Shown in pieces: positions 7,287 to 17,351 of a stretch of DNA of 64,000 nt. The position numbers and the translations under genes are program-made. Every line of letters begins with the position of its first letter. The first letter of the stretch is position 1. Source of the stretch: Escherichia phage BF17. The stretch lies in the sequence record MW822008.1. The stretch is one strand, 5' to 3'. The notes under the pieces are model-generated. The model had not been told where the DNA came from and did no database searches. It saw nothing but the letters and a program-made list of their open reading frames with translations.

Positions 7287-7318
7287 CTAGCCCACTTATA
7301 CAGTGGGCTTTTTTGTGT
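7287..7318 (+). terminator. Rho-independent terminator
   Basis: hairpin AGCCCACTtatacAGTGGGCT then TTTTTTG. Confidence 0.75.
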
Positions 7319-7324
7319 TTATCG

Positions 7325-7440
7325 TTTACCAGGCCACCAGCACCGCCTAGAAACGATTCTAACGCATTAAACTGATTATCTGATGCATCACCCTAGCTGG
7401 TGGCGTTAAGGTCGTTAGAATGCGATTGAGTGCGTTTAAA
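7325..7440. repeat. Large imperfect palindrome with Chi octamers on both arms and TTAGAATGCG motifs
   Basis: CCACCAGC 7334-7341 and GCTGGTGG 7396-7403; ATTCTAACGCATT / CGTTAGAATGCG inside. Confidence 0.5.
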
Positions 7441-7468
7441 GTATTTTACAAAAAGTAATAAAAAGTAC

Positions 7469-7496
7469 TTGCACGATTAAGAGATTAGCGTATAAT
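7469..7496 (+). promoter_or_regulatory. sigma70 promoter with 5' stem-loop
   Basis: TTGCAC 7469-7474, TATAAT 7491-7496, hairpin GGGGGAAacggTTCTCC. Confidence 0.7.
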
Positions 7497-7551
7497 GTTT
7501 TACATCGAGAGGGGGAAACGGTTCTCCTTCCAAATCAAAGGAATCAAAACA

Positions 7552-7779
7552 ATGGCTATTATCATTACTCGCGTATCTGGTACTACTGGCAACGAACAAG
7601 TAGTTGCAGTCATTACCAACAAGGAAGGTGCGGAATTGCAAAATGCAATGAATACCTGGGCCGTTAATGAGTTCGGTCAGTGGGCAAGTGTAGCATACAT
7701 TGAAACCTATCAAGTGCCGTCGATTAGTTTAACTGATTTGGGCGTTGAGCGTATCCTTTGCCTTGATGAATTAAATTAA
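7552..7779 (+). CDS. hypothetical protein (75 aa)
   Basis: ATG 7552, RBS AGGA 7538-7541. Confidence 0.75.
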   Translation: MAIIITRVSGTTGNEQVVAVITNKEGAELQNAMNTWAVNEFGQWASVAYIETYQVPSISLTDLGVERILCLDELN

Positions 7780-7787
7780 AAAAGTAC

Positions 7788-7815
7788 TTGCAAAGTAAAT
7801 CGAATAAAGTATAAT
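7788..7815 (+). promoter_or_regulatory. sigma70 promoter with 5' stem-loop
   Basis: TTGCAA 7788-7793, TATAAT 7810-7815, hairpin GGGGAGAAaatgGTTCTCCCC. Confidence 0.7.
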
Positions 7816-7865
7816 ACATTACATCAAGGGGAGAAAATGGTTCTCCCCACTACAAGGAAACTAAA

Positions 7866-8009
7866 ATGAAAACTTGTCAATGTGGTCAGAAATCTATTAC
7901 GGGTTTAAAGCGGGGCGTTGCTCTTTGCCAGTACCATTATAATTTACAAGTATGGGGTAAAGAATGGGCCGACCAGGTGGAAGCAGCAAAGAAAGCAAAA
8001 AGTAAGTAA
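7866..8009 (+). CDS. small Cys-containing protein (47 aa; CQCG...CQYHY), below ORF-track cutoff
   Basis: translated by hand: MKTCQCGQKSITGLKRGVALCQYHYNLQVWGKEWADQVEAAKKAKSK; RBS AAGGAA; promoter upstream. Confidence 0.6.
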   Translation: MKTCQCGQKSITGLKRGVALCQYHYNLQVWGKEWADQVEAAKKAKSK

Positions 8010-8022
8010 AAATATTATCACA

Positions 8023-8057
8023 GTACTATTGACATAGTTTGATAGTACTGGCATAAT
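8023..8057 (+). promoter_or_regulatory. Palindromic promoter cassette AGTACTAT-TGACATAGTTTG-ATAGTACT (copy 1)
   Basis: TTGACA 8029-8034, CATAAT 8052-8057; about 60 nt (8007-8070) exactly repeated at 8299-8362. Confidence 0.7.
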
Positions 8058-8088
8058 AGATTTTATCAAGACGACTAAGGAAAACAAA

Positions 8089-8301
8089 ATGGCTATCATT
8101 ACAAAAATCAAAGTAAACAAATCACTGGTTAAACTTGAACAAGTGAAAGCAGGTTATAAAGTATCGTGGTGCGGTATGTATCGGATGTTCGCAGATATTG
8201 ATGAAGCGATCAATTATTACAGCGACACGGTTAAAAACTTTGTTCGTGCTGATGTGGTTATGGCAGTGGCAGCACATAAAGCAGCGAAAGAAAGTAAGTA
8301 A
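8089..8301 (+). CDS. hypothetical protein (70 aa); paralog of 11203..11382
   Basis: ORF track; RBS AAGGAA; MAII(T/A)K start shared with 11203 gene. Confidence 0.75.
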   Translation: MAIITKIKVNKSLVKLEQVKAGYKVSWCGMYRMFADIDEAINYYSDTVKNFVRADVVMAVAAHKAAKESK

Positions 8302-8314
8302 AAATATTATCACA

Positions 8315-8349
8315 GTACTATTGACATAGTTTGATAGTACTGGCATAAT
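8315..8349 (+). promoter_or_regulatory. Palindromic promoter cassette (copy 2, exact repeat of copy 1)
   Basis: TTGACA 8321-8326, CATAAT 8344-8349. Confidence 0.7.
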
Positions 8350-8390
8350 AGATTTTATCAAGACAACATATTAATTTAAGGAATACAAAA

Positions 8391-8714
8391 ATGGCTAAAA
8401 CTATCATTAACACCGTTTCCCTGGCTGCAATCCGTGCAATCAATGTTGACGGTAAACGTTGGACTGATTCATATGGCAATACTTATCATTCTTGTCATGT
8501 AAGCGTTGAACTGGATAACGGTTTGAATGATCTGGCGGTTGAATCATTTACTTATGGCTATGAAGATGCATATCAACAAACGGCGTTAGATCTCTTAAAG
8601 GAATCAGTAGACGGGCTTAATACTGATGAAACCTCCCTTACTCGTTTGTGCAATGATCTTAATATCCCGTTGCATTGTACTGTACAGAATGTTAAACGCA
8701 AAAAAGATCTTTAA
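8391..8714 (+). CDS. hypothetical protein (107 aa); paralog of 14809..15132
   Basis: shares RWTDS(Y/H)GNTYHSC(H/Y)VS and C-terminal RKKD(L/M) with 14809 gene. Confidence 0.75.
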   Translation: MAKTIINTVSLAAIRAINVDGKRWTDSYGNTYHSCHVSVELDNGLNDLAVESFTYGYEDAYQQTALDLLKESVDGLNTDETSLTRLCNDLNIPLHCTVQNVKRKKDL

Positions 8715-8794
8715 TTAGCTTTACTTTATGCAGATACTTTGATATAGTGTCTGCATAGGGGAAAGAAATTAAATTAACTTAAGAGGATCGTATA

Positions 8795-9064
8795 ATGAAA
8801 AATATCAGTACTTTAATCGATGCAGGTACACATGTTCGGCGGTCTATGGTTGCAACCAGTACTACAAAACAAGTAGCGAGCGGTTATCTTGTATTTGTGC
8901 ACGATGGTAAACTCCTGGAACGTTCAATCAATTTTGATGTTAAAAACAATTGCCGTTTTATTATCTTTAAGCGTGAACAATATAAAATTGATTTACCAGC
9001 GAAGCCCATAAGCGGGGCGTACAACGTGCAATCATTGTTTGAGCGTCAACCTTACACCTATTAA
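8795..9064 (+). CDS. hypothetical protein (89 aa)
   Basis: ORF track; strong RBS AAGAGGA; upstream inverted repeat ATGCAGATACT...AGTGTCTGCAT. Confidence 0.7.
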   Translation: MKNISTLIDAGTHVRRSMVATSTTKQVASGYLVFVHDGKLLERSINFDVKNNCRFIIFKREQYKIDLPAKPISGAYNVQSLFERQPYTY

Positions 9065-9115
9065 TCAAAACATCGTTAGCGGTCGTTTAAGGCCGCTTAT
9101 ATTGGGGATTATACC

Positions 9116-9388
9116 ATGAACGTTAATCAAGTACTGAATGAGATCGAAAGCATCATTAAACCGATGAAGCGTACTGATGCTATGTTAACACCGGAAGAAA
9201 GCCGCCTATATGAGCGTTACAGCGTCGAACAAGTCCAGGCAATGGCTATGGCTACGCCAGCCGTTAAACCGCCTGAGAATGCGTTACAGGACGTTACAGG
9301 GGATTATATCATTAATCCAGTACTAGGGAAGATGCCGCCAATCACCGAAGAACAAAAAGACTATTTGAGTCAGTACTTAAAAGGTTAA
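9116..9388 (+). CDS. hypothetical protein (90 aa)
   Basis: ORF track; RBS GGGG. Confidence 0.65.
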   Translation: MNVNQVLNEIESIIKPMKRTDAMLTPEESRLYERYSVEQVQAMAMATPAVKPPENALQDVTGDYIINPVLGKMPPITEEQKDYLSQYLKG

Positions 9389-9393
9389 TTAAT

Positions 9394-9603
9394 ATGCTTA
9401 CTGTACAGGATAAGATCGACATCTTAAAGGTTAATATGTATGTGATTGATGCCGTACCTGGTAAAGTATTTGCATACGATGATTCTAATCGCAGTCCTTT
9501 CTATTGTAGTCATGTAGTTGGATACGTGCCGTTGGCGTATGTTATCGAAAGAGTGGTTGATGCAGCATACAATCATTTTTTAGAAAATAATACTTGCAAT
9601 TAG
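9394..9603 (+). CDS. hypothetical protein (69 aa)
   Basis: ORF track; 5 nt after previous stop. Confidence 0.6.
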   Translation: MLTVQDKIDILKVNMYVIDAVPGKVFAYDDSNRSPFYCSHVVGYVPLAYVIERVVDAAYNHFLENNTCN

Positions 9604-9621
9604 TTTTTAAACGCGTATAAT
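9594..9621 (+). promoter_or_regulatory. sigma70 promoter with 5' stem-loop
   Basis: TTGCAA 9594-9599, TATAAT 9616-9621, hairpin GGGGAGAAatgaTTCTCCCC. Confidence 0.7.
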
Positions 9622-9672
9622 GTTTTACATGAAGGGGAGAAATGATTCTCCCCACTAATTAAGGAATATGAA

Positions 9673-9819
9673 ATGAAAGCATCAAAAAAGAGTAATACCA
9701 AGAAAGCATGTTCACCTTTCGCTGGGGTATTCCCTTTACGTTTCGTTGATGAAGTGGTTTCCTACCCGCTGGGCCTTACTCCTGAGATGGTAGAAAGTTT
9801 GCGTAAATCTAAAAAATAA
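9673..9819 (+). CDS. small basic protein (48 aa), below ORF-track cutoff
   Basis: hand-translated MKASKKSNTKKACSPFAGVFPLRFVDEVVSYPLGLTPEMVESLRKSKK; RBS AAGGAA. Confidence 0.55.
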   Translation: MKASKKSNTKKACSPFAGVFPLRFVDEVVSYPLGLTPEMVESLRKSKK

Positions 9820-9823
9820 TACT

Positions 9824-9850
9824 TGCAATTAGTTTTCAGTACTGTATAAT
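9824..9850 (+). promoter_or_regulatory. sigma70 promoter with 5' stem-loop
   Basis: TTGCAA 9824-9829, TATAAT 9845-9850. Confidence 0.7.
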
Positions 9851-9900
9851 AGTTTACATGAAGGGGAGAAATGATTCTCCCCAATAACAGGAGAAACAAA

Positions 9901-10053
9901 ATGAAACAATACAACGCTCGGTTTGATGTTACTATCGGCAACGGCAAAGGTCAATTCTCTTTCAGTACTCGCCGCAGTTATACAGAAAACTTCCTGCGAA
10001 ATTGTGCACTGACCGCCGCACAAATTAAACATTACTTCCAGGCTAAAAAATGA
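9901..10053 (+). CDS. hypothetical protein (50 aa)
   Basis: ATG 9901 with RBS CAGGAG; track start 9871 lies in leader. Confidence 0.6.
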   Translation: MKQYNARFDVTIGNGKGQFSFSTRRSYTENFLRNCALTAAQIKHYFQAKK

Positions 10054-10139
10054 AATCATTAGCTTATTACAGTTCGGCGGTGATCGGTGCATTGATCGCG
10101 GCATTGTTAGTAACCTATCTATTCTTTATGGTGATTTAA
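10050..10139 (+). CDS. tiny hydrophobic single-TM peptide (29 aa)
   Basis: ATGA overlap with upstream stop; MKSLAYYSSAVIGALIAALLVTYLFFMVI. Confidence 0.35.
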   Translation: MKSLAYYSSAVIGALIAALLVTYLFFMVI

Positions 10140-10259
10140 ATGAATCCTAACGGTTTAATTTACAGTACTACTAAAACGAAAGCAGATAAAGCGAAAGTAA
10201 AGGAGTACATTAAGCAAGGCATGACGCGAAAGGCGGCAGTACTGAAAGCTAAAAAATAA
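10140..10259 (+). CDS. small basic protein (39 aa)
   Basis: ATG adjacent to previous TAA; MNPNGLIYSTTKTKADKAKVKEYIKQGMTRKAAVLKAKK. Confidence 0.35.
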   Translation: MNPNGLIYSTTKTKADKAKVKEYIKQGMTRKAAVLKAKK

Positions 10260-10267
10260 ATGAAAAA

Positions 10268-10350
10268 AGTGGTTGACTTCGGTCAGCCATTTTGCTATTA
10301 TATATTCATTGAGAGATAGCTCACTAGCCCACCGGGTGCATAAGTGTATC
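10268..10350 (+). promoter_or_regulatory. Composite module: terminator-like hairpin overlapping promoter (TTGACT-17-TATTAT) plus conserved element GCCCACCGGGTGCATAAGTGTATC
   Basis: hairpin 10271-10288 with T-run; TTGACT 10273-10278; TATTAT 10296-10301; element 10327-10350. Confidence 0.55.
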
Positions 10351-10394
10351 TATTATATAAGTATTGAGTACTGAGAACTATTTTTAAAAAGTAC

Positions 10395-10422
10395 TTGCAA
10401 ACTATCTCAATTGGCGTATAAT
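10395..10422 (+). promoter_or_regulatory. sigma70 promoter with 5' stem-loop
   Basis: TTGCAA 10395-10400, TATAAT 10417-10422. Confidence 0.7.
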
Positions 10423-10473
10423 GTTTTACATCGAGAGGGGGAACGGTTTCCCCTGGTAATAAGGAAACGAATC

Positions 10474-10815
10474 ATGACTATCTCAATTGCTCAATCTAAC
10501 TTTGAAAATGAAATCATCGCCCAGGCACTGCGTTTAAATGATGGTCGGGCCGAAATTAATTACGGTTTCAATTCAGGCGGTTGTGAAAACTATCAGTACT
10601 TTGTAACTGCTGATGGCGGTGTCCTGGGCATCAATACCGTTATTGTAAACATTCAGAAAATTAATTTCAATGATCCAGACGATAGCCAGTTTTACATTGT
10701 AGGCGTAGACGTGAACTATGAGGATGACTCACTAACTGATGATCACACTGGCGAGAAGTTAGAAAGTGCATACGGTGAAGATGATTATCAGTCCGGTCCA
10801 GAAGATTTTGAATAA
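10474..10815 (+). CDS. hypothetical protein (113 aa), acidic C-terminus
   Basis: ATG 10474 with RBS AAGGAA. Confidence 0.75.
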   Translation: MTISIAQSNFENEIIAQALRLNDGRAEINYGFNSGGCENYQYFVTADGGVLGINTVIVNIQKINFNDPDDSQFYIVGVDVNYEDDSLTDDHTGEKLESAYGEDDYQSGPEDFE

Positions 10816-10828
10816 TATTAAAAAATAG

Positions 10829-10857
10829 TTTGACAATAGATTATAGTACTGTATAAT
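10829..10857 (+). promoter_or_regulatory. sigma70 promoter (TTGACA-17-TATAAT) with 5' stem-loop
   Basis: TTGACA 10829-10834, TATAAT 10852-10857. Confidence 0.7.
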
Positions 10858-10906
10858 AAGTTACATCAAGGGGAGAATAGTTCTCCCCACTAACAGAGAA
10901 AACAAA

Positions 10907-11119
10907 ATGGCTAATATCTGCACTGTACTGAAAAATGCAAAACAAGTTTTATTTTCTGACCACGATTATTTTAATAAAGATATTACAGGCGTTCGGAATA
11001 TCAAAGATGTAAAAAGTGTTATGGGTATCTATTGCAATATGAAACGTGTTGGAACGTTCGGCGACAAAGTACTATACCAGGCAGGGGATTACAATTTTAC
11101 ACTGACTATCATTAACTAA
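10907..11119 (+). CDS. hypothetical protein (70 aa)
   Basis: ORF track; RBS GAGAAAA. Confidence 0.7.
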   Translation: MANICTVLKNAKQVLFSDHDYFNKDITGVRNIKDVKSVMGIYCNMKRVGTFGDKVLYQAGDYNFTLTIIN

Positions 11120-11132
11120 AAATATTATCACA

Positions 11133-11167
11133 GTACTATTGACATAGTTTGATAGTACTGACATAAT
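11133..11167 (+). promoter_or_regulatory. Palindromic promoter cassette (copy 3)
   Basis: TTGACA 11139-11144, CATAAT 11162-11167, flanked by AGTACTAT / ATAGTACT. Confidence 0.7.
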
Positions 11168-11202
11168 AACTTTTATCAACTACACTACTAAGGAATTAAA
11201 AA

Positions 11203-11382
11203 ATGGCTATCATCGCAAAAACTGAAATCGTTGGTCTGGATTCTATCATCATGACGTTTGAAGATCAAAAAGGTATGTATGTAGTTTCATATGGTGATTA
11301 TGTTCGGGAGTATGAAACGGTAGACGAAGCCTTTGAAAGTTATATTCGCCAGGTGAATAAAGCATACGACGACTACCGCTAA
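11203..11382 (+). CDS. hypothetical protein (59 aa); paralog of 8089..8301
   Basis: hand-translated; RBS AAGGAA. Confidence 0.6.
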   Translation: MAIIAKTEIVGLDSIIMTFEDQKGMYVVSYGDYVREYETVDEAFESYIRQVNKAYDDYR

Positions 11383-11403
11383 AATATATTACCAGTACTA
11401 TTA

Positions 11404-11437
11404 AAGTTATTGACATAGTTTGATAGTACTGTATAAT
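11404..11437 (+). promoter_or_regulatory. Palindromic promoter cassette (copy 4)
   Basis: TTGACA 11410-11415, TATAAT 11432-11437. Confidence 0.7.
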
Positions 11438-11481
11438 AAGTTTTATAAACAGTAGTTAACTTAACCTAAGAGAGAAATAAA

Positions 11482-11625
11482 ATGATCGCACTGGATTCAT
11501 TCATCGACGCAGTACTGGCAAAAACTGGCGAGGATCTGACCGCAGAACAATACGCGATGATCGAGCAATGTCAGCAAAACGGTAAATCGGTGAAAGATAC
11601 TGTTAAGATTATCCGCAAGATGTAA
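11482..11625 (+). CDS. small protein (47 aa), below ORF-track cutoff
   Basis: hand-translated MIALDSFIDAVLAKTGEDLTAEQYAMIEQCQQNGKSVKDTVKIIRKM; RBS AGAGAAA. Confidence 0.55.
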   Translation: MIALDSFIDAVLAKTGEDLTAEQYAMIEQCQQNGKSVKDTVKIIRKM

Positions 11626-11631
11626 GATTAT

Positions 11632-11665
11632 AGCCCACTGGTTAACGCTGGTGGGCTTTAATCCT
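11632..11665 (+). terminator. Terminator-like hairpin containing a Chi octamer
   Basis: AGCCCAC...GTGGGCT stem; GCTGGTGG 11647-11654; weak T-run. Confidence 0.45.
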
Positions 11666-11730
11666 TTACCCTATACAATGTCAGTACTAAACCGTTTATC
11701 TCATTAGAATGCGTTACAGGACGTTTGACA

Positions 11731-11928
11731 ATGATTAGCATGAAATCAGTACAAAAACAAATAGAAACATTATCAAAAATTAAACGTAAACAGTACTCGT
11801 TAGAATATACAATCAATGGTAACTATCATCTAATGAAAGAGAATAATTTTATCGTCATTGATGAATCATTGCAAGTTATTAGTATAGTACTGAAAGCATT
11901 AATTAATGATAGAAAAAAATTAAAATAA
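11731..11928 (+). CDS. hypothetical protein (65 aa), AT-rich codon usage
   Basis: ATG 11731 (track start is TTG 11725); weak RBS; no promoter seen. Confidence 0.4.
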   Translation: MISMKSVQKQIETLSKIKRKQYSLEYTINGNYHLMKENNFIVIDESLQVISIVLKALINDRKKLK

Positions 11929-11932
11929 TCTA

Positions 11933-12013
11933 TTGACAATATCCTCCAGTACTGGCATAATACTTACATCAAGACGAGAACGTCACTAACCCATAGGGTG
12001 CACAAATGTAACT
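11933..12013 (+). promoter_or_regulatory. Promoter (TTGACA-17-CATAAT) plus conserved element ACCCATAGGGTGCACAAATGTAAC
   Basis: TTGACA 11933-11938, CATAAT 11956-11961, element 11988-12013. Confidence 0.55.
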
Positions 12014-12020
12014 GTATAAT

Positions 12021-12057
12021 ATTGATCAAAAAATGATCTGATCAATACTTGATCAAT
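12021..12057. promoter_or_regulatory. GATC cluster: 4 GATC sites in 31 bp, three as TGATCAA
   Basis: GATC at 12024, 12035, 12040, 12051 within the leader upstream of the TraR-like gene. Confidence 0.6.
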
Positions 12058-12259
12058 TTGCGTAAAGTAGTATAATTCTATGCAGTTGGTTAGACGAAAG
12101 GTTATGATTAGTAGTGCAAGTGTATAAAAATTTTCATGGTGTATCGTTCCGCACATATGGCAATGAATATGTGGTATCATGTGGATTGGAAAAAGTAAGA
12201 ACAAGTAATATTATTGTCGCATTACAGTACTATAGTATTTTTATAATGAGGTTAAAATA

Positions 12260-12517
12260 ATGGCTGTAGGATTCGCGAAAGATGGGGCCGAACAAGACGA
12301 GATTAACGCAGTGATTCAGGCCGCCGTTAACCACGCTAGAAAGCAAATTAACGCACAAATAGAATCACTGATACATTGCCTCGACTGCGGCGATATAATC
12401 CCTGAGAAACGACGCCAGGCCGTTAAGGGATGTAAGTACTGCATAACTTGCCAGGAGGATCATGATAGTACTTTTAAACGTCCCCCGCGTAATTGTTGGC
12501 ATAGATCTATGAGATAA
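12260..12517 (+). CDS. TraR/DksA-family C4 zinc-finger protein (85 aa)
   Basis: CLDCGDIIPEKRRQAVKGCKYCITCQ = C-x2-C-x13-C-x2-C-x2-C arrangement with IPE..RR typical of TraR; RBS GAGG. Confidence 0.75.
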   Translation: MAVGFAKDGAEQDEINAVIQAAVNHARKQINAQIESLIHCLDCGDIIPEKRRQAVKGCKYCITCQEDHDSTFKRPPRNCWHRSMR

Positions 12518-12523
12518 AAAGTA

Positions 12524-12552
12524 TTGACAGTACTATCCAGTAGTGTTATAGT
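12524..12552 (+). promoter_or_regulatory. sigma70 promoter (TTGACA-17-TATAGT) with 5' stem-loop
   Basis: TTGACA 12524-12529, TATAGT 12547-12552, hairpin AGGGGAAacatcTTCCCCT. Confidence 0.65.
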
Positions 12553-12598
12553 ACTTACATCAAGGGGAAACATCTTCCCCTACTAAGAGGAAATGAAA

Positions 12599-12787
12599 AT
12601 GGAAAACTTATCAAGTATTTTAGTACAAGATGATTTCGGTAATCCTGGAAGTGCTATCATTGTTCGGGGTAATAAAGCAACATTTGTTATTGCTGGTGGA
12701 CCTGTACAGCGTAGCATTAAAAACAATGCCGTTACTATTAATAATGTACGCTATCGCTTAGATAAAGAATTGATTCATAAACTGTAA
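12599..12787 (+). CDS. hypothetical protein (62 aa)
   Basis: ATG 12599 with RBS AGAGG (track start 12593 too close to RBS). Confidence 0.65.
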   Translation: MENLSSILVQDDFGNPGSAIIVRGNKATFVIAGGPVQRSIKNNAVTINNVRYRLDKELIHKL

Positions 12788-12814
12788 TATTAATTTAATA
12801 GAGGATAACAATAA

Positions 12815-13138
12815 ATGTACATTCATACTACTATCACAAAGGAAGTCCGTTGCCAGTTCGAAAGTATTCCGGGCGTATGTTTCATCACTGGTACGTTTTC
12901 CCCTGGTGATCGTGATAATCCAGTACTGTTACAATTACGCCATCCATCATGGGATAAAGCATTTGATCTACCGTTGAATGAATTCGCAACTACTGCTGAA
13001 AAGTACATTAAAAATATTCGCGAGAATGATCGACTATTCATTAATGCTTTCAGTGATTCCGCGTTAAGCGAGATCCACAGCGTATTGGTTGCAATCATGG
13101 AATCAATGGAGAAAACTAAATTCAAACAAGGTGAATAA
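12815..13138 (+). CDS. hypothetical protein (107 aa)
   Basis: ORF track; RBS AGAGGA. Confidence 0.7.
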   Translation: MYIHTTITKEVRCQFESIPGVCFITGTFSPGDRDNPVLLQLRHPSWDKAFDLPLNEFATTAEKYIKNIRENDRLFINAFSDSALSEIHSVLVAIMESMEKTKFKQGE

Positions 13139-13144
13139 AAACTA

Positions 13145-13172
13145 TTGACAAGATAATCTAGTACTGTATAAT
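13145..13172 (+). promoter_or_regulatory. sigma70 promoter (TTGACA-16-TATAAT) with 5' stem-loop
   Basis: TTGACA 13145-13150, TATAAT 13167-13172. Confidence 0.7.
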
Positions 13173-13221
13173 AAGTTACATGAAGGGGAGAAATGATTCT
13201 CCCCACTGAGAGGAAAGAAAA

Positions 13222-13434
13222 ATGCAAGGTCAACTAATCGTTCGTAAATGGTCTGATACTAACGCTAAACCGTGGGATGTACAATACATCGGACCGGATG
13301 GGGTATCACGTTATCAGCCTGGCGTAACGCATAGTACTGAGCAATATGCCGCCGCTCACCGCGAACGCCTGTTAGAATCCATGAAACAGGGATACGGTGA
13401 AAAATTCATTCAAGATCATTGGCTGAAAGATTAA
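13222..13434 (+). CDS. hypothetical protein (70 aa)
   Basis: ORF track; RBS GAGAGGAAA. Confidence 0.75.
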   Translation: MQGQLIVRKWSDTNAKPWDVQYIGPDGVSRYQPGVTHSTEQYAAAHRERLLESMKQGYGEKFIQDHWLKD

Positions 13435-13451
13435 TATAAGGAGTACAGCTT

Positions 13452-13544
13452 ATGCAAATGAATCCGATGATTATTGTGTTAGCTGTACTTATGATCATTC
13501 ATGCAATAGTAAAAGTATTAACGCAATCAGGAGTAATAAAATGA
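13452..13544 (+). CDS. tiny hydrophobic single-TM peptide (30 aa)
   Basis: RBS AAGGAG 13436-13441; MQMNPMIIVLAVLMIIHAIVKVLTQSGVIK. Confidence 0.4.
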   Translation: MQMNPMIIVLAVLMIIHAIVKVLTQSGVIK

Positions 13545-13714
13545 TTCAAGTAGAATTATCAGTACTGAAAGATCTGTTTTATCGGTTAGGTACTACTGGC
13601 GAGTATCCTAAAAGTGATACCGCAAAACTTTTTGTATCACTCGACTTATGGCAACGCGAACAATTAGTAATGTCCTGGCGTAAAGGTAAAGCAGATAGCG
13701 AGGTGAAAGCATGA
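13541..13714 (+). CDS. small protein (57 aa)
   Basis: ATGA overlap with upstream stop; RBS CAGGAG. Confidence 0.45.
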   Translation: MIQVELSVLKDLFYRLGTTGEYPKSDTAKLFVSLDLWQREQLVMSWRKGKADSEVKA

Positions 13715-13860
13715 AAGAATTCTTATTCGAAGTAGTGTTTCAAGGTGTCGGTAGTAACCAACTGATTCGCTCAAGTGGTTATAATGTTAACCAGGCATGG
13801 AATAACATTAAACAAATGTACCCGAACGCTATCACCTATCGCAACCCGAAAGAAGTTTAA
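13711..13860 (+). CDS. small protein (49 aa)
   Basis: ATGA overlap with upstream stop; RBS GAGG. Confidence 0.45.
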   Translation: MKEFLFEVVFQGVGSNQLIRSSGYNVNQAWNNIKQMYPNAITYRNPKEV

Positions 13861-13873
13861 AAATATTTGAAAA

Positions 13874-13952
13874 AGGGATTGACTCCGGTCAGTCCCTTTG
13901 CTATTATATACGCATAGAAACAAATCAGCCCACAGGGTGCATAAATGTATCT
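13874..13952 (+). promoter_or_regulatory. Composite module: bidirectional terminator-like hairpin overlapping promoter plus conserved element AGCCCACAGGGTGCATAAATGTATC
   Basis: hairpin GGGATTGACtccgGTCAGTCCC 13875-13896, TTGACT 13878-13883, element 13927-13952; Chi GCTGGTGG 13960-13967 just downstream. Confidence 0.55.
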
Positions 13953-13998
13953 ATTGTTTGCTGGTGGCTAGTACTGAAAACTATTTTTAAAAAAGTAC

Positions 13999-14026
13999 TT
14001 GCATTGTACTTAGAATCAAGTATAAT
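13999..14026 (+). promoter_or_regulatory. sigma70 promoter P1 (TTGCAT-16-TATAAT)
   Basis: TTGCAT 13999-14004, TATAAT 14021-14026. Confidence 0.65.
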
Positions 14027-14030
14027 GTTT

Positions 14031-14114
14031 TACATCAGGACGGGGAACGAAACAAGTAACCCCGTTAAGTAGTCCAGGAGTAAGACATAAGAAAACCTCC
14101 CCTGATAAAATAGT
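14031..14114 (+). ncRNA. Conserved structured leader / candidate small RNA (copy 2)
   Basis: about 85% identical to 3722-3806; stem CGGGG...CCCCG one base pair shorter on both arms. Confidence 0.4.
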
Positions 14115-14142
14115 TTGACAATAGAAAGTAAACGAGTATAAT
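14115..14142 (+). promoter_or_regulatory. sigma70 promoter P2 (TTGACA-16-TATAAT)
   Basis: TTGACA 14115-14120, TATAAT 14137-14142. Confidence 0.65.
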
Positions 14143-14175
14143 ACTTACATCAACCACTGATAAGGAAACATTAAA

Positions 14176-14451
14176 ATGCGGATTCTACTGACAGCTAACG
14201 AAATCGAACAAGTACTGACTACTAACCTGGAAGACTGGAAACGTGAAGCAGATATCCAGGCGGTTCAACTGCTTAACGATAAGTTAACGCCGGATGACTT
14301 AAGCAAGATTGTAGATCCTCAATTCTACGAAGATATCCACGACACCGCGTTAAGCGTCGAGGATGTACTAGATAAGCACTACATTGATATTGATTTGCAG
14401 GTTTACGGTCGTAAAAACTTTATCACTATTCACGACATTTATAATAATTAA
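14176..14451 (+). CDS. hypothetical acidic protein (91 aa)
   Basis: ORF track; RBS AAGGAAA. Confidence 0.75.
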   Translation: MRILLTANEIEQVLTTNLEDWKREADIQAVQLLNDKLTPDDLSKIVDPQFYEDIHDTALSVEDVLDKHYIDIDLQVYGRKNFITIHDIYNN

Positions 14452-14454
14452 GTA

Positions 14455-14482
14455 TTGACAAAGTATCTTAGTACTGTATAAT
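14455..14482 (+). promoter_or_regulatory. sigma70 promoter with 5' stem-loop
   Basis: TTGACA 14455-14460, TATAAT 14477-14482, hairpin GGGGGAAtggTTCCCCTCC. Confidence 0.7.
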
Positions 14483-14537
14483 AGTTTACATCGAGAGGGG
14501 GAATGGTTCCCCTCCTAACAAAGAGAGAGAAATAAAA

Positions 14538-14720
14538 ATGGCTAAATGCACTATCTGCAAGAAAGAAATAGTATTAGTTCCAAGTGCCCGTGAACGTGCC
14601 GCTCGGTTCGGTGGCAAAGCGTCAGACTATACAAAAATGTTTACTACCCATGCAGCTTGCCAGGTAGCAAAACGTTCACAAGAAAGCGTAGAATTAATGC
14701 GTAAACTTTCCAAAAAATAA
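14538..14720 (+). CDS. small Cys-containing basic protein (60 aa; CTIC...ACQ)
   Basis: ORF track; RBS AGAGAGAGAAA. Confidence 0.7.
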   Translation: MAKCTICKKEIVLVPSARERAARFGGKASDYTKMFTTHAACQVAKRSQESVELMRKLSKK

Positions 14721-14723
14721 GTA

Positions 14724-14751
14724 TTGACAAAGTATCTTAGTACTGTATAAT
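14724..14751 (+). promoter_or_regulatory. sigma70 promoter with 5' stem-loop
   Basis: TTGACA 14724-14729, TATAAT 14746-14751. Confidence 0.7.
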
Positions 14752-14808
14752 AGTTTACATCAAGTGAGGGGAAACGGTTCCCCTCCTAACAAAGAGAGAG
14801 AAATAAAA

Positions 14809-15132
14809 ATGGCTATGATCCTTGCCCAGAAAGTAGAACTGAAAATTGTAACCTCCTTTGACATTAAAGTTAATCGGTGGACTGATTCACACGGCAATAC
14901 TTACCACTCTTGCTACGTGTCCGCGTTAATTGGCGACCGCTGGGAAGACTTGGGACATGAAACCTTTACTTACGGTTACGGTACACAAGGAGAATACACG
15001 GGCTTGGAGATCATTAAAGAAACCGTTATAGGTTTCAACCCGAAAGAAAAAGTTATTCACCGCATCGAAAAAGAGATTAACAAAGAAATAACAGTTCGCT
15101 ACTACGATGTAAAACGTAAGAAAGACATGTAA
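14809..15132 (+). CDS. hypothetical protein (107 aa); paralog of 8391..8714
   Basis: ATG 14809; track start 14764 lies in leader. Confidence 0.75.
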   Translation: MAMILAQKVELKIVTSFDIKVNRWTDSHGNTYHSCYVSALIGDRWEDLGHETFTYGYGTQGEYTGLEIIKETVIGFNPKEKVIHRIEKEINKEITVRYYDVKRKKDM

Positions 15133-15146
15133 TAGAATCCATTTAA

Positions 15147-15183
15147 AGTACTATTTGACATTGCCCAGATAGTACTTTATAAT
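15147..15183 (+). promoter_or_regulatory. Promoter TTGACA-17-TATAAT enclosed by palindrome AAGTACTAT...ATAGTACTT
   Basis: TTGACA 15155-15160, TATAAT 15178-15183; same architecture as 2783-2819. Confidence 0.65.
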
Positions 15184-15227
15184 AGACTCTAACTTGTAGT
15201 ACTAACTCAACTAATAGGATGTATACC

Positions 15228-15623
15228 ATGATTACTAAATTCTACGCTACCCGTGAAGCTGCCCGTATTGTTGCACGCGAGGAAGGAGCAGCATTTAAAG
15301 ACATGGGCAAAGATGCACCGAAAGGTCAACGCTGGGCCGTACAGTTCAAAGAAATCTCTGATATTGTGAATTCACCTGAGCCAGTACTAACAGCAGCAGA
15401 ACTAAAACGAGCGGATTTACTGGCGGCAGTACTTAACGCACAAGATGAATTTATCGCTGATTCTGATATCAAAGTACAGACAAACCATACCGCTTGGACT
15501 CACGCGGATCACCTGGCAAACCTTAAGCGTCCAAGTGAACTGGTTCGCAACCAGAAAGAGATCCGACACGACCGTAAGGGTAATCGTGTAACAGTATACA
15601 GTAAACGCCGCCAGGTTATCTAA
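15228..15623 (+). CDS. hypothetical protein (131 aa); paralog of 2856..3122
   Basis: ATG 15228 with RBS AGGA 15215-15218. Confidence 0.75.
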   Translation: MITKFYATREAARIVAREEGAAFKDMGKDAPKGQRWAVQFKEISDIVNSPEPVLTAAELKRADLLAAVLNAQDEFIADSDIKVQTNHTAWTHADHLANLKRPSELVRNQKEIRHDRKGNRVTVYSKRRQVI

Positions 15624-15643
15624 TAACTTGCAGTACTAACAAC

Positions 15644-15671
15644 ACGGCGGGATCAGTTCCCGCCTTTTTTA
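15644..15671 (+). terminator. Rho-independent terminator
   Basis: hairpin GGCGGGatcagttCCCGCC then TTTTTT. Confidence 0.75.
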
Positions 15672-15685
15672 TAGGATAAACTAAA

Positions 15686-15940
15686 ATGATTAAGGTACAA
15701 CTATCTAAAGATAATATCTTGCGGGTACACTATAAAGCACCACAGAGAATCATCACAAAGGCCGTACAGCTTGCTAATGAGTTTATTAATGGTAACCTAT
15801 TACCAAGGAAGTTAAGCAACGGAAAACTGCGTGTAATCGATGTAGACACTAACAACAGAATAGTAATTGAGAACACAGGAAAGATAAACCTATATGAACA
15901 CCAACAATATAATAAGAAAATAAAACTAATATCACGTTGA
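15686..15940 (+). CDS. hypothetical basic protein (84 aa)
   Basis: ORF track; RBS AGGA. Confidence 0.65.
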   Translation: MIKVQLSKDNILRVHYKAPQRIITKAVQLANEFINGNLLPRKLSNGKLRVIDVDTNNRIVIENTGKINLYEHQQYNKKIKLISR

Positions 15941-15965
15941 CAGTACTCAATTGTTTTAGTATTAT
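15937..15965 (+). promoter_or_regulatory. sigma70 promoter (TTGACA-17-TATTAT); duplicated cassette with 16213-16241
   Basis: TTGACA 15937-15942, TATTAT 15960-15965; leader TACACATACCAACACGGG shared. Confidence 0.6.
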
Positions 15966-15993
15966 GTACACATACCAACACGGGAGAAACAAA

Positions 15994-16212
15994 ATGAAAT
16001 TATCTAAAATCGAAAAGAAAACTATTGATGAAGCAGTTAAGCACGGTTATACCTTTCGTAATGATTCACATTTTACCAATTTTCAACAAGGCCAAAGGAC
16101 TATTAAAAAACTAATTGACAAAGGTTTATTAGTTAAAGTAGATAACGGTAACGGCATTGAGTATCAGCCAACCCAAGACGCATTATCTTTAAAGAAATAT
16201 GCAATTATCTAA
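15994..16212 (+). CDS. hypothetical protein (72 aa)
   Basis: ATG 15994; track start 15937 is the TTG of the -35. Confidence 0.7.
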   Translation: MKLSKIEKKTIDEAVKHGYTFRNDSHFTNFQQGQRTIKKLIDKGLLVKVDNGNGIEYQPTQDALSLKKYAII

Positions 16213-16241
16213 TTGACAGTACTCAAATGTTTTAGTACTAT
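16213..16241 (+). promoter_or_regulatory. sigma70 promoter (TTGACA-17-TACTAT)
   Basis: TTGACA 16213-16218, TACTAT 16236-16241. Confidence 0.6.
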
Positions 16242-16269
16242 ATGTACATACCAACACGGGGAAAACAAA

Positions 16270-16512
16270 ATGATTACTTTAGAAAAACGTATCAAAGAAA
16301 CTACATCGCTGGTGGAACTGTTAACAGTACTGAAATGCCGTACTACTCGGTTTAGTACACCGGACTTTATTAATATGGTTGATGTTAACGGTCGTTATCG
16401 CATTGCAGTAGAACATGGAACAGCGAAAGTATTCAGTACTAAAAACACTAAGGAAGTGATTCACGCGGTTAGTGTGAAAAAAGTGGTTGCCATTGATAGT
16501 AAAGTACTGTAA
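16270..16512 (+). CDS. hypothetical protein (80 aa)
   Basis: ATG 16270, RBS GGGGAAAA. Confidence 0.7.
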   Translation: MITLEKRIKETTSLVELLTVLKCRTTRFSTPDFINMVDVNGRYRIAVEHGTAKVFSTKNTKEVIHAVSVKKVVAIDSKVL

Positions 16513-16543
16513 GATAGTTTCATTAACTCAAGGAGAACATGCA

Positions 16544-17128
16544 ATGCGTAATTATACTAAATTCATCCGTACCCTGTCAGAAATGGAAACCAACAAAGAG
16601 ATCCTTTCAGCTTGTCGGTTAGCTGGTCTGGAGATCATCGGTGCGGGTTCTTCCCGTATTGTATTCGCTTTAAATGATCGGTTAGTGATTAAGGTCGCCA
16701 ATTGTGATGCGGGTGTAGAACAAAATGAAACTGAATGTAAGGTATGGAATTTTTTAGACTATGACCGCCCTCAATTGAAACAGTACTTTGCAAAGGTGCA
16801 TATGCATTTATGCGATCCTGATAATATGTTTATCGTTATGGATCGGTTGAGTACTGCAAGCAAAGGCAGTGTAAAGCACGTTAACGCGTGCAACGAATTA
16901 AAGTACAATATTAAACGTAATGCCATTGAACGCCAGCACCGCTTTGCTGATGCACTACAACACGTCGATGATACATTATCAACACTAACGATAAGAGATA
17001 TCAGAAAACAGAATATCGGCCAGGATCGTAATGGACTTATTAAAGTACTTGATTACGGTTTAACCCGCAATATCTGGAATCAGTACTATAAAAAGCGTGA
17101 TGTGGCAGCAAGTAAAGTAACACGATAA
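16544..17128 (+). CDS. putative small atypical protein kinase (194 aa) with Hanks-like catalytic motifs
   Basis: IIGAGSSRIVF (Gly-rich loop), VIKV (Lys), IRDIRKQNIG (cf. HRDxKxxN), VLDYGL (cf. DFG); ATG 16544 with RBS AAGGAG. Confidence 0.55.
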   Translation: MRNYTKFIRTLSEMETNKEILSACRLAGLEIIGAGSSRIVFALNDRLVIKVANCDAGVEQNETECKVWNFLDYDRPQLKQYFAKVHMHLCDPDNMFIVMDRLSTASKGSVKHVNACNELKYNIKRNAIERQHRFADALQHVDDTLSTLTIRDIRKQNIGQDRNGLIKVLDYGLTRNIWNQYYKKRDVAASKVTR

Positions 17129-17141
17129 AAAAGATTAAAAA

Positions 17142-17225
17142 AGGGATTGATTTCGGTCAGTCCCTTTGCTATTATATATTCATTGAGAGATAGCTCACTG
17201 ACCCACAGGGTGCATAAATGTATCT
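17142..17225 (+). promoter_or_regulatory. Composite module: terminator-like hairpin overlapping promoter plus conserved element ACCCACAGGGTGCATAAATGTATC
   Basis: hairpin GGGATTGAtttcgGTCAGTCCC 17143-17165; element 17201-17225. Confidence 0.55.
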
Positions 17226-17268
17226 ATTATATAAGTATTCAGTACTGAAAACTATTTTTAAAAAGTAC

Positions 17269-17296
17269 TTGCATTGTACTTAGAATCAAGTATAAT
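17269..17296 (+). promoter_or_regulatory. sigma70 promoter with 5' stem-loop
   Basis: TTGCAT 17269-17274, TATAAT 17291-17296. Confidence 0.7.
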
Positions 17297-17351
17297 GTTT
17301 TATATCGAGAGGGGGGGAACGGTTCTCCCTCAAAGAATAAGGAATAAAATC

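What the first reader, a model, noticed from the sequence alone, without database searches (positions are those of the whole stretch)
12260..12517. TraR/DksA-type zinc-finger protein in the early module
CLDCGDIIPEKRRQAVKGCKYCITCQ matches the C4 zinc-finger and IPE..RR pattern of TraR-like RNA polymerase secondary-channel binders. A phage-encoded TraR homolog could redirect host RNA polymerase (stringent-response mimicry). The unusual GATC-rich leader upstream adds interest.
Basis: established knowledge. Interest (0 to 1): 0.4.

Follow-up and report, generated by a model that had tools for sequence, protein, structure and literature searches.

The report
Phage YbiI-type TraR/DksA zinc-finger gene
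The small gene is a real member of the DksA/TraR zinc-finger family carried by a giant E. coli phage, and public records already annotate it that way. It belongs to the uncharacterised YbiI branch, which lacks the TraR signature tip, so calling it a stringent-response mimic is plausible but unproven.

Summary
The 85-aa ORF at 12260..12517(+) is real and under purifying selection (dN/dS 0.11-0.25). It passes the Pfam DksA/TraR zinc-finger threshold (41.2 bits against a cut-off of 24.9). The window is an Asteriusvirus jumbo coliphage (PBECO4/121Q group). Identical or near-identical genes are already annotated "DksA-like zinc-finger protein", and 974 phage records hold a relative.

The protein is not a canonical TraR. 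Its best matches are E. coli YbiI (2KGO) and the NCBIfam YbiI model. Homology to TraR covers residues 18-74, including the rim-helix and Si3 contact residues (P48, E49, R51, R52) and the start of the C-terminal helix. The DxxDxA tip that TraR function requires is absent, replaced by a conserved MAVGFAKDGAEQ cap. The C-terminal tail (PRNCWHRSMR) is a phage-specific variant.

The gene lies about 12 kb inside the roughly 21-kb direct terminal repeat, among consensus sigma-70 promoters, which supports calling it early.

The GATC cluster is real (4 sites in 31 bp, P about 0.004) and conserved across Asteriusvirus clades. It precedes a conserved 48-aa ORF that is translationally coupled (TAATG) to the zinc-finger gene.

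Verdict: ordinary, already-annotated family member; mechanism inferred, not shown.

The parts
11933..11961 (+). P1: sigma-70-type promoter TTGACA-17-CATAAT with an upstream TG. It is the outermost promoter of the two-gene unit.
   Evidence: Promoter scan, 11 of 12 matches. Member of repeat family D5. Conserved in the 121Q, Turkey5 and WPEC3 clades.
11990..12010 (+). One copy of a 21-nt box, CCCAYMGGGTGCAYAARTGTA, at about +20..+45 of the P1 transcript. Function unknown.
   Evidence: 7 copies in the first 20 kb against 0.01 expected. All sit at the same distance downstream of a sigma-70-like promoter.
12024..12054 (.). GATC cluster: 4 GATC, 3 of them as GATCAA, with two TTGATCAA palindromes. 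The sites form two pairs spaced 11 bp apart.
   Evidence: P=0.003-0.005. The other Asteriusvirus clades checked keep 4-5 GATC in 57-68 bp around the same -10, including 11-bp-spaced pairs. Absent from the T4-like homologue locus.
12049..12076 (+). P2: promoter-like site TTGATC-16-TATAAT. Its -35 hexamer contains one of the GATC sites.
   Evidence: Promoter scan, 10 of 12 matches. The -10 TATAAT is invariant across clades. Activity not tested.
12114..12260 (+). 48-aa ORF (GTG start; phrog_38664; 121Q gp293). Its stop codon overlaps the ATG of the zinc-finger gene (TAATG), so the two are probably translationally coupled.
   Evidence: Open in all five clades despite about 70% nucleotide identity. 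Substitutions are biased to the third codon position (11/7/20). PHROG hit E=4e-35. No Pfam family.
12260..12517 (+). 85-aa DksA/TraR-family C4 zinc-finger protein of the YbiI branch.
12260..12295 (+). Codons 1-12, MAVGFAKDGAEQ: a conserved N-terminal cap that occupies the place of the TraR DxxDxA tip.
   Evidence: M1, A2 and G4 are invariant; K7, D8, G9, A10 and Q12 are at least 90% conserved in 57 homologues. The segment does not align to the TraR N-terminus in hhalign. MAFFT places 3 extra residues relative to TraR, lambda-type Orf73 and VP882 TraR.
12377..12451 (+). Codons 40-64: the CxxC-N17-CxxC zinc knuckles with I47, P48, E49, R51 and R52.
   Evidence: C40, C43, C61, C64, I47, R51 and R52 are invariant. 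They align to TraR I44, P45, E46, R48 and R49.
12473..12514 (+). Codons 72-85, FKRPPRNCWHRSMR: a phage-clade-specific C-terminal tail.
   Evidence: Invariant as PRNCWHRSMR in Asteriusvirus and some Tevenvirinae. It replaces the YNRRGSKDSQLR tail found in bacterial YbiI and in other large virulent phages. Predicted non-helical with low pLDDT. A 55-aa remnant ORF in a Mosigvirus keeps only this end.

Best explanation
The gene encodes a small zinc-ribbon protein of the YbiI branch of the DksA/TraR family.

Proposed mechanism. Host sigma-70 RNA polymerase makes it early in infection, from promoters in the phage's 21-kb direct terminal repeat, together with a translationally coupled 48-aa protein. 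It most likely binds host RNA polymerase the way TraR does. [quoted passage not shown] There it would alter transcription initiation, probably disfavouring promoters with short-lived open complexes (rRNA and ribosomal-protein promoters) relative to the phage's own consensus, AT-rich-discriminator promoters.

Because it lacks the DxxDxA tip and carries a different conserved cap and tail, its potency or exact effect probably differs from TraR.

What is shown: family membership, fold topology, conservation of the TraR RNAP-contact residues in the globular domain, purifying selection, and location in the terminal repeat among sigma-70 promoters.

What is inferred: RNAP binding, the direction of the effect on transcription, and early timing.

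The GATC/GATCAA cluster is best read as a DNA-level regulatory site overlapping a secondary promoter, either a Dam/SeqA-sensitive site or an operator. Confidence in that reading is low (about 0.3).
For: Family and fold:
- Pfam PF01258 above threshold.
- hhalign against a TraR-family alignment gives probability 99%, E=3.7e-18, over residues 18-74 = TraR 15-71.
- phmmer against the PDB finds YbiI 2KGO (E=2e-12) and TraR in RNAP complexes 6N57/5W1S (E=1e-5).
- The AF2 model (pLDDT 73) has helix 6-31, zinc knuckles and helix 62-71. Its top Foldseek hits are 2KGO, TraR bound to RNAP (6n57_M, TM 0.64 on the target) and DksA.

Contact residues:
- TraR P45, E46, R48 and R49 correspond to P48, E49, R51 and R52, which are invariant or nearly so.
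- These residues matter for rim-helix and Si3 contacts (PMC9239242, PMC6970531).
- An acidic residue at position 8 or 9 is near-universal in the YbiI-like family. Position 9 is in register with TraR D6.

Precedent from experiments:
- X. bovienii Gp34 lacks D3 yet still binds RNAP and inhibits rrnB P1, with IC50 415 nM (PMC9239242).
- Overexpressed YbiI was reported to rescue dksA auxotrophy, data not shown (PMC2613031).

Selection and host range:
- dN/dS is 0.11-0.25.

Context:
- 12 perfect TTGACA-N16-18-TATAAT sites on the + strand against 0.19 expected, 10 of them in the first 18 kb.
- The gene lies inside the annotated DTR of vB_Ec-M-J (1..21525).
- The fEgEco12 DTR was confirmed by restriction digests. 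That phage's annotation lists a phage-encoded sigma factor; no phage RNA polymerase core is mentioned in the passages I read (PMC13070987).
Against: - The DxxDxA motif, required for function of TraR, lambda Orf73 and DksA, is not present in register (D3~A6, D6~G9, A8~E11).
- The N-terminus is 3 residues longer than TraR's. [quoted passage not shown]
- Scores are below the curated cut-offs of every specific NCBIfam model: TraR, C4_traR_proteo and YbiI.
- The predicted C-terminal helix has about 10 residues against 16 in TraR and is followed by Pro-Pro.
- No experiment on any YbiI-type protein is published in the searchable library, other than one 'data not shown' sentence.
- Some DksA/TraR-family zinc-finger proteins lacking DxxDxA are known not to act like DksA, for example RSP0166 and SMc00049 (PMC9239242).
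Confidence: 0.5

Rival explanations
1. Secondary-channel occupant acting as an antagonist rather than a mimic. The protein binds RNAP like TraR but, lacking the catalytic-site DxxDxA tip, does not trigger TraR-type allostery. Instead it excludes host DksA (and so ppGpp site 2), GreA and GreB. That would blunt, rather than imitate, the host stringent response during infection.
For: The binding determinants (P48, E49, R51, R52, zinc domain) are conserved while the functional tip is not. In DksA the tip aspartates are essential for function but not for binding (PMC9239242). Rnk is a known precedent for a channel binder that only competes (PMC9239242).
Against: The N-terminal cap is the most conserved part of the protein, which is hard to explain if it were functionally inert. 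YbiI was reported to rescue, not worsen, dksA auxotrophy (PMC2613031). An acidic residue at position 8/9 is retained.
Confidence: 0.2
2. YbiI-type proteins have a target other than RNA polymerase, for example a metal-related role like that suggested for E. coli ybiI in the Fur-regulated fiu-ybiX-ybiI operon, or another nucleic-acid or protein partner bound through the conserved basic tail. The phage copy would exploit that function.
For: [quoted passage not shown] The conserved N-cap and C-tail have no counterpart in TraR. Other family members without DxxDxA do not act like DksA (PMC9239242).
Against: The TraR residues that contact the rim helices and Si3 are exactly conserved, and the fold topology matches RNAP-bound TraR. 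A virulent phage has no obvious use for an iron-metabolism factor. Relatives are spread across many large virulent myoviruses that depend on host RNAP.
Confidence: 0.2
3. The GATC cluster is a chance or mutationally generated low-complexity repeat with no function, and the 48-aa ORF is a spurious call.
For: The region is AT-rich and repetitive. Predicted RNA structure of the leader is not significant (z = -1.8 and -1.1). No Pfam family matches the 48-aa ORF.
Against: The window-wide probability of the cluster is 0.003-0.005 against a GATC-depleted background. The other Asteriusvirus clades checked (leader only about 79% identical) keep 4-5 GATC around the same invariant -10, again with 11-bp-spaced pairs. 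The ORF stays open with third-position-biased substitutions, whereas the opposite-strand ORF is broken by stops.
Confidence: 0.07

Closest known systems
E. coli YbiI (PDB 2KGO; NCBIfam NF008243 'DksA/TraR family C4-type zinc finger protein')
   Same: Best sequence and structure match: phmmer E=2e-12 over residues 1-74, 37-39% identity. Shares the MAxG[FW]xxD N-terminal cap, one N-terminal helix, the same zinc-knuckle spacing, the IP[EQ]xRR motif, and a basic C-terminal extension absent from TraR.
   Different: The score of 81.4 is below the equivalog cut-off of 96. The tail is PRNCWHRSMR instead of the widely conserved YNRRGSKDSQLR. Position 11 is Glu in the phage clade and Val in bacteria. 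The gene is phage-borne and early-expressed rather than in a Fur-regulated chromosomal operon. YbiI's own function is unknown.
F-plasmid TraR and phage TraR homologues (lambda Orf73, P2 Orf82, VP882 Orf61, VHML Orf8)
   Same: Same Pfam family. hhalign probability 99% over residues 18-74. Identical Cys spacing. The P45, E46, R48 and R49 equivalents are conserved. The topology is the same: N-helix, zinc domain, C-helix. All are carried by mobile elements of Gammaproteobacteria, and the phage copies sit in early or regulatory regions.
   Different: No DxxDxA. Three extra N-terminal residues. The C-terminal helix is shorter and followed by a 14-residue tail. Only 26-28% identity. Below the TIGR02419 and NF010268 cut-offs. 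Carried by large virulent myoviruses rather than temperate phages or plasmids.
DksA (E. coli, 151 aa)
   Same: Shares the C4 zinc-finger globular domain. Foldseek hit 7khi_M, probability 0.89.
   Different: No two-helix coiled coil, no ppGpp-contacting residues, and about half the length. NF033459 scores 13.9 bits against a cut-off of 105.
VP882 QisA-TraR pair (Beggs & Bassler, bioRxiv 10.64898/2026.07.27.740977)
   Same: A TraR-family gene whose start overlaps the stop of the upstream gene. In VP882 the upstream product forms a complex with TraR and potentiates growth arrest. That makes the coupled 48-aa ORF here a candidate partner.
   Different: QisA is 199 aa and CII-like. The 48-aa ORF has no detectable similarity to it. 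No interaction has been tested here.

Membership tests
Pfam PF01258 zf-dskA_traR | Score at or above the curated gathering threshold | tested here: met
   41.2 bits against 24.9, E=1.6e-10, residues 39-68.
Pfam PF01258 zf-dskA_traR | Four-cysteine CxxC-N17-CxxC zinc motif | tested here: met
   C40, C43, C61 and C64, invariant in 57 homologues, with the same spacing as TraR C37/C40/C58/C61.
TraR-type regulators (as defined functionally in PMC9239242) | N-terminal DxxDxA motif (TraR D3, D6, A8) | tested here: not met
   The N-terminus is MAVGFAKDGAEQ. hhalign does not align residues 1-17. At the offset of 3, D3~A6, D6~G9 and A8~E11. The nearest resemblance is D8-G-A10, one residue out of register.
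TraR-type regulators | Globular-domain residues contacting the beta' rim helices and Si3 (P45, E46, R48, R49) | tested here: met
   P48, E49, R51 and R52 align to them; R51 and R52 are invariant. K50 is Q53 and P43 is I46, so those two are not conserved.
TraR-type regulators | C-terminal helix that contacts the beta lobe-Si1 (TraR 58-73) | tested here: inconclusive
   The AF2 model has helix 62-71 only, then Pro75-Pro76 and a low-confidence tail. The hhalign alignment extends to TraR residue 71.
TraR-type regulators | Curated NCBIfam thresholds (TIGR02419 C4_traR_proteo; NF010268 TraR) | tested here: not met
   52.5 against 59.7, and 30.1 against 108.
TraR-type regulators | Binds the RNAP secondary channel and regulates initiation without ppGpp | not testable with these tools
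   Needs biochemistry or a modelled or experimental complex.
YbiI equivalog (NCBIfam NF008243) | Score at or above the curated cut-off | tested here: not met
   81.4 against 96. It is nevertheless the best and only near-full-length match (residues 1-72).
YbiI-like branch (my working definition from the alignments) | N-terminal MA-x-G-[FW] cap followed by an acidic residue at position 8 or 9 | tested here: met
   MAVGF..D8. The pattern is shared by bacterial YbiI-like proteins and by homologues in Slopekvirus, Yoloswagvirus, Twarogvirinae and Ceceduovirus phages.
YbiI-like branch (my working definition from the alignments) | Conserved C-terminal tail YNRRGSKDSQLR | tested here: not met
   Replaced by PRNCWHRSMR. 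Only the R..S.R-COOH pattern is shared.
DksA proper | Long two-helix coiled coil, ppGpp site-2 residues, about 150 aa, curated model NF033459 | tested here: not met
   85 aa with a single N-terminal helix. 13.9 bits against 105.

The most novel reading that the evidence does not exclude
YbiI-type proteins, including this phage copy, form a mechanistically distinct class of RNA-polymerase secondary-channel ligands. An N-terminally extended, Gly/aromatic-capped tip (MAxG[FW]) would reach the active site differently from the DxxDxA tip. A conserved basic C-terminal tail would contact a second RNAP or nucleic-acid site.

Asteriusviruses and some T-even-like phages have swapped that tail for PRNCWHRSMR. 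They express the protein with a coupled 48-aa partner from a Dam/SeqA-sensitive promoter in the terminal repeat, so its synthesis would be tied to the methylation and replication state of the incoming DNA.
Probability: 0.15. Interest if true: 0.55.

Novelty: already known. Interest (0 to 1): 0.2.

Why it matters
As a gene call it adds nothing new. The same protein is already annotated in many Asteriusvirus and T4-like genomes, and phage TraR homologues have been shown to reprogramme host RNA polymerase.

The modest value is a refinement. The form carried by large virulent enterobacterial phages is the YbiI type, whose tip and tail differ from every tested TraR homologue and whose function has never been published.

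Testing one such phage protein would show whether the many "DksA-like zinc-finger protein" annotations in virulent phages (974 records hold a relative) really denote stringent-response mimics. It would also shed light on the orphan E. coli gene ybiI.

The conserved GATC cluster, on a GATC-depleted genome, is a cheap test case for methylation-dependent timing of an early phage operon.

Tried and rejected
- RNA-level explanation of the leader. No Rfam family matched anywhere in the window at gathering threshold. MFE folds of the P1 leader are not significantly stable (z -1.8 in the window, -1.1 in 121Q) and differ between clades. Rejected in favour of a DNA-level site.
- Minus-strand ORF 11986..12204 (72 aa), annotated as a CDS in phage JP4. 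It is interrupted by several stop codons in the 121Q, Turkey5, EC.P1 and WPEC3 clades. Rejected as spurious.
- Homology of the 48-aa ORF to VP882 QisA: no BLASTP alignment.
- A small peptide encoded by the repeated 21-nt box (HRVHKC in one frame). There is no consistent start codon downstream of the predicted transcription starts. Not pursued.
- A second zinc site involving C58, C79 and H81. C58 is Val in many clade members and H68 is variable. Not supported.
- Literature. The first 'YbiI' search was swamped by ytterbium chemistry. A refined search found only Fur-regulon lists. The JP4 paper does not mention DksA, methyltransferases or terminal repeats. No experimental study of an Asteriusvirus or T4-like DksA-like protein was found.
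- Searching with TraR returned only close F-type TraR proteins. That limits the diversity of the TraR profile used for hhalign.
- Neighbouring small genes have only phage-specific PHROGs of unknown function and no informative Pfam hit.

Full report
**Observation.** The window contains an ATG-initiated ORF at 12260..12517 on the + strand, encoding 85 aa: MAVGFAKDGAEQDEINAVIQAAVNHARKQINAQIESLIHCLDCGDIIPEKRRQAVKGCKYCITCQEDHDSTFKRPPRNCWHRSMR. A GAGG Shine-Dalgarno sits 8 nt upstream. The ORF is a real gene. Against four other Asteriusvirus clades dN/dS is 0.11-0.25. A search of 5.8 billion proteins returns 58 relatives, all carrying PF01258, of which 45 are full-length at 62-99% identity.

**Identity of the genome.** Megablast of 11000-14000 matches Asteriusvirus jumbo coliphages (PBECO4, slurp01, UB, SD-6_S16, JP4, 121Q; about 350-385 kb) at 92-98% identity. 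Several of these records already annotate the gene. It is 'DksA-like zinc-finger protein' in JP4, ELP-22, E9.1, vB_Ec-M-J and the RefSeq copy of 121Q gp294; 'C-4 type zinc finger protein' in the GenBank copy of 121Q; and 'TraR/DksA C4-type zinc finger protein' in WPEC3 and Turkey5. A 100%-identical translation exists in Salmonella phage SD-1_S14. In all, 974 of 50,697 phage records hold a tblastn match, 440 of them over at least 80% of the length.

**Family assignment.** Pfam PF01258 (zf-dskA_traR) scores 41.2 bits against a gathering threshold of 24.9. PHROG 54 'DksA-like zinc-finger protein' gives E=1e-18. Among NCBIfam models the best is NF008243, the YbiI-type equivalog. It scores 81.4 bits over residues 1-72, below its cut-off of 96. 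The TraR-specific models score lower and also fall below their cut-offs: TIGR02419 52.5<59.7, NF010268 30.1<108. DksA proper scores 13.9<105.

Against PDB sequences the best hit is E. coli YbiI (2KGO, E=2e-12, residues 1-74). TraR as seen in RNAP complexes (6N57, 5W1S) follows at E=1e-5 over residues 18-71. An AlphaFold2 model built on 57 homologues (mean pLDDT 73) shows a helix at 6-31, the zinc knuckles, a short helix at 62-71 and an unstructured tail. Foldseek against the PDB returns YbiI, RNAP-bound TraR (TM 0.64 normalised to TraR) and DksA as the top hits. A profile-profile comparison with an alignment of F-type TraR proteins gives 99% probability, E=3.7e-18, aligning residues 18-74 to TraR 15-71. 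Family membership and homology to TraR are therefore secure.

**What is and is not TraR-like.** Gopalkrishnan et al. 2022 (PMC9239242) and Chen et al. 2019 (PMC6970531) define three functional elements of TraR.
- An N-terminal helix carries DxxDxA (D3, D6, A8) and reaches the active site. TraR residue S2 lies 4.3 A from the Mg2+.
- A zinc globular domain contacts RNAP: R48 binds the beta' rim helices, and E46, R49 and K50 contact beta'Si3. P43A and P45A are binding-defective.
[quoted passage not shown] I47, P48, E49, R51 and R52 align with TraR I44, P45, E46, R48 and R49. I47, R51 and R52 are invariant across 57 homologues.

The C-terminal helix is only partly there: about 10 predicted helical residues, then Pro75-Pro76.

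The DxxDxA motif is absent. hhalign leaves residues 1-17 unaligned. At the offset of 3 set by the rest of the alignment, TraR D3, D6 and A8 fall on A6, G9 and E11. MAFFT with lambda-type Orf73, VP882 TraR and F TraR likewise inserts three extra residues after the first two (MA---D against MAVGFA).

In place of the motif there is a cap, MA-x-G-[FW]. Together with the zinc ligands it is the most conserved part of the family: M1, A2 and G4 are invariant, and K7, D8, G9, A10 and Q12 are at least 90% conserved. An acidic residue at position 8 or 9 is near-universal in YbiI-like proteins, and position 9 is in register with TraR D6. In this phage the Asp is at position 8.

This matters for function. 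The tip aspartates are needed for function, not for binding. X. bovienii Gp34, which lacks D3, still binds RNAP and inhibits rrnB P1, though more weakly (IC50 415 against 50 nM). Other family members lacking the motif do not act like DksA at all (PMC9239242).

**The YbiI branch and the unusual tail.** A profile search of 1.84 billion representatives finds 325 proteins at E<=1e-10. Those inspected are mostly 85-90-aa proteins with the same cap. Bacterial members and the homologues in Slopekvirus, Cronobacter phage S13, Yoloswagvirus, Acinetobacter phage Ac42 and Ceceduovirus phages end in a strikingly conserved YNRRGSKDSQLR. Asteriusviruses and a subset of T4-like phages (Moon, vB_EcoM_RZ, MHG19, fHe-Yen9-01) instead end in an equally invariant PRNCWHRSMR. 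Neither tail has a counterpart in TraR.

A Mosigvirus carries a 55-aa ORF retaining only the last 27 residues, which corresponds to phrog_25948. YbiI itself is functionally uncharacterised. [quoted passage not shown]

**Context: is it 'early'?** The + strand of the window carries 12 perfect TTGACA-N16-18-TATAAT sites against 0.19 expected, 10 of them within the first 18 kb. Most are followed by a conserved hairpin leader and a short ORF of unknown function.

In vB_Ec-M-J the homologous gene (12349-12606) lies inside the annotated direct terminal repeat 1..21525. In fEgEco12 a 20,993-bp terminal repeat was confirmed by restriction mapping. That phage's annotation lists a phage-encoded sigma factor; no phage RNA polymerase core is mentioned in the passages I read (PMC13070987).

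The gene therefore sits about 12 kb from a physical genome end. It is present twice per virion DNA and lies in a region built for host sigma-70 transcription. This supports 'early' by inference, but no transcript data were found. It also makes a modulator of host RNAP biologically sensible. The phage promoters have AT-rich discriminators (for example TATAAT-AAGTTAC), the opposite of the GC-rich discriminators of TraR/DksA-sensitive rRNA promoters. That point rests on established knowledge and is an inference here.

**The leader and the GATC cluster.** Upstream of the gene, in order, are:
- P1 (11933-11961, TTGACA-17-CATAAT);
- a 21-nt box (11990-12010);
- a conserved TATAAT at 12014-12019;
- four GATC sites at 12024, 12035, 12040 and 12051, three of them as GATCAA, with two TTGATCAA palindromes;
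- a promoter-like TTGATC-16-TATAAT (12049-12076);
- a 48-aa ORF (12114..12260, GTG start) whose TAA overlaps the zinc-finger ATG.

GATC is depleted in the window (131 observed, 203+-15 expected). This is the only spot with 3 or more GATC in 60 bp. The window-wide probability of 4 in 31 bp is 0.003-0.005 under uniform and third-order Markov nulls.

The 121Q-type clades have a leader only about 79% identical, yet they keep 4-5 GATC within 57-68 bp around the same invariant -10. They again include pairs spaced 11 bp apart (121Q 700/711 and 756/767; window 12024/12035 and 12040/12051). The T4-like homologue locus has no GATC at all in 5.2 kb.

RNA folding of the leader is not significant, so I read the cluster as a DNA-level site. 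One-helical-turn spacing of GATC pairs and a GATC inside a -35 hexamer recall Dam/SeqA-sensitive promoters; this rests on established knowledge and was not tested. The conserved AA after GATC equally suggests a sequence-specific operator. I cannot distinguish these.

The 48-aa ORF is real by comparative criteria. It is open in five clades, with substitutions 11/7/20 by codon position, and matches phrog_38664. The opposite-strand 72-aa ORF annotated in JP4 is broken by stops in the other clades.

A recent preprint shows that VP882 TraR works as a complex with the product of the overlapping upstream gene, QisA (bioRxiv 10.64898/2026.07.27.740977). The 48-aa protein is unrelated to QisA. The precedent nevertheless makes a partner role worth testing.

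**Mechanism and rivals.** My best estimate (0.5) is that the protein binds the host RNAP secondary channel through its TraR-like zinc domain and modulates initiation in a broadly TraR-like direction, with altered potency or specificity because of the different tip and tail. The rivals are:
- a channel occupant that antagonises DksA/ppGpp and the Gre factors instead of mimicking them (0.2);
- a non-RNAP function of the YbiI branch (0.2);
- for the accessory features only, chance or spurious calls (0.07).

None can be settled without biochemistry. The decisive assays are listed separately.

**Verdict.** It is an ordinary member of a very common phage gene family. The only mildly interesting refinements are that it is YbiI-type rather than TraR-type, that it carries a variant conserved tail, that it sits in the terminal repeat, and that its operon is preceded by a conserved GATC cluster.

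Noticed in passing
window 3525-3545(+), 3573-3593(-), 10328-10348, 11990-12010, 13929-13949, 17202-17222, 19164-19184: A 21-nt box, CCCAYMGGGTGCAYAARTGTA, occurs 7 times (up to 3 mismatches) against 0.01 expected, all in the first 20 kb. Each copy lies about 27-30 nt downstream of the -10 of a sigma-70-like promoter, at about +20..+45 of the transcript. No Rfam match and no consistent ORF. It could be an operator, a 5'-leader RNA motif or part of small RNAs.
   Followed up: partly
window 10253-10312 and 13859-13918 (also about 17140 and 19100): Compact terminator/promoter modules. A GC-rich hairpin followed by a T-run (terminator-like) contains the -35 hexamer TTGACT of the next promoter (AAAAAGGGATTGACTYCGGTCAGYCCCTTTGCTATTATAT) (family D6, 77).
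   Followed up: partly
window 366-17604, + strand: A dense array of perfect sigma-70 consensus promoters (TTGACA-16-TATAAT). Most are followed by the leader ACATCAAGGGGAGAA..TTCTCCCC hairpin and a short ORF of unknown function. 12 perfect sites against 0.19 expected. The region corresponds to the ~21-kb direct terminal repeat of Asteriusviruses.
   Followed up: partly
window 12518-12592, compared with L001 4574-4930, L002 1255-, L003 1234-, L008 1034-: A 357-nt GNAT acetyltransferase gene lies directly downstream of the DksA-like gene in 121Q, JP4, Turkey5 and vB_Ec-M-J. It is absent from the window, where only a promoter separates the DksA-like gene from the next ORF. This is an indel polymorphism within the genus.
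   Followed up: no
window-wide: GATC is under-represented: 131 sites against 203+-15 expected from dinucleotide shuffles. The T4-like locus L007 has none in 5.2 kb.
   Followed up: no
L006 1459-1626 (Escherichia phage 308Ecol101PP, Mosigvirus): A 55-aa ORF keeps only the C-terminal 27 residues (IYCVGCQSMHDEIFKREPRNCWHRSMR) of the DksA-like protein, fused to an unrelated N-terminus. It is a deletion remnant corresponding to phrog_25948.
   Followed up: partly
window 29604-63067, + strand: A run of about 40 co-oriented ORFs of 150-207 aa (plus two of 284 and 295 aa). None of ten sampled has a Pfam hit. Paralogy is limited: one family of 6 (38185-47083) and one of 3 (29604-31587) at E<1e-5.
   Followed up: partly
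window 11986-12204, - strand: A 72-aa ORF annotated as a hypothetical protein in phage JP4 is interrupted by several stops in four other Asteriusvirus clades. It is probably a spurious gene call in public records.
   Followed up: yes
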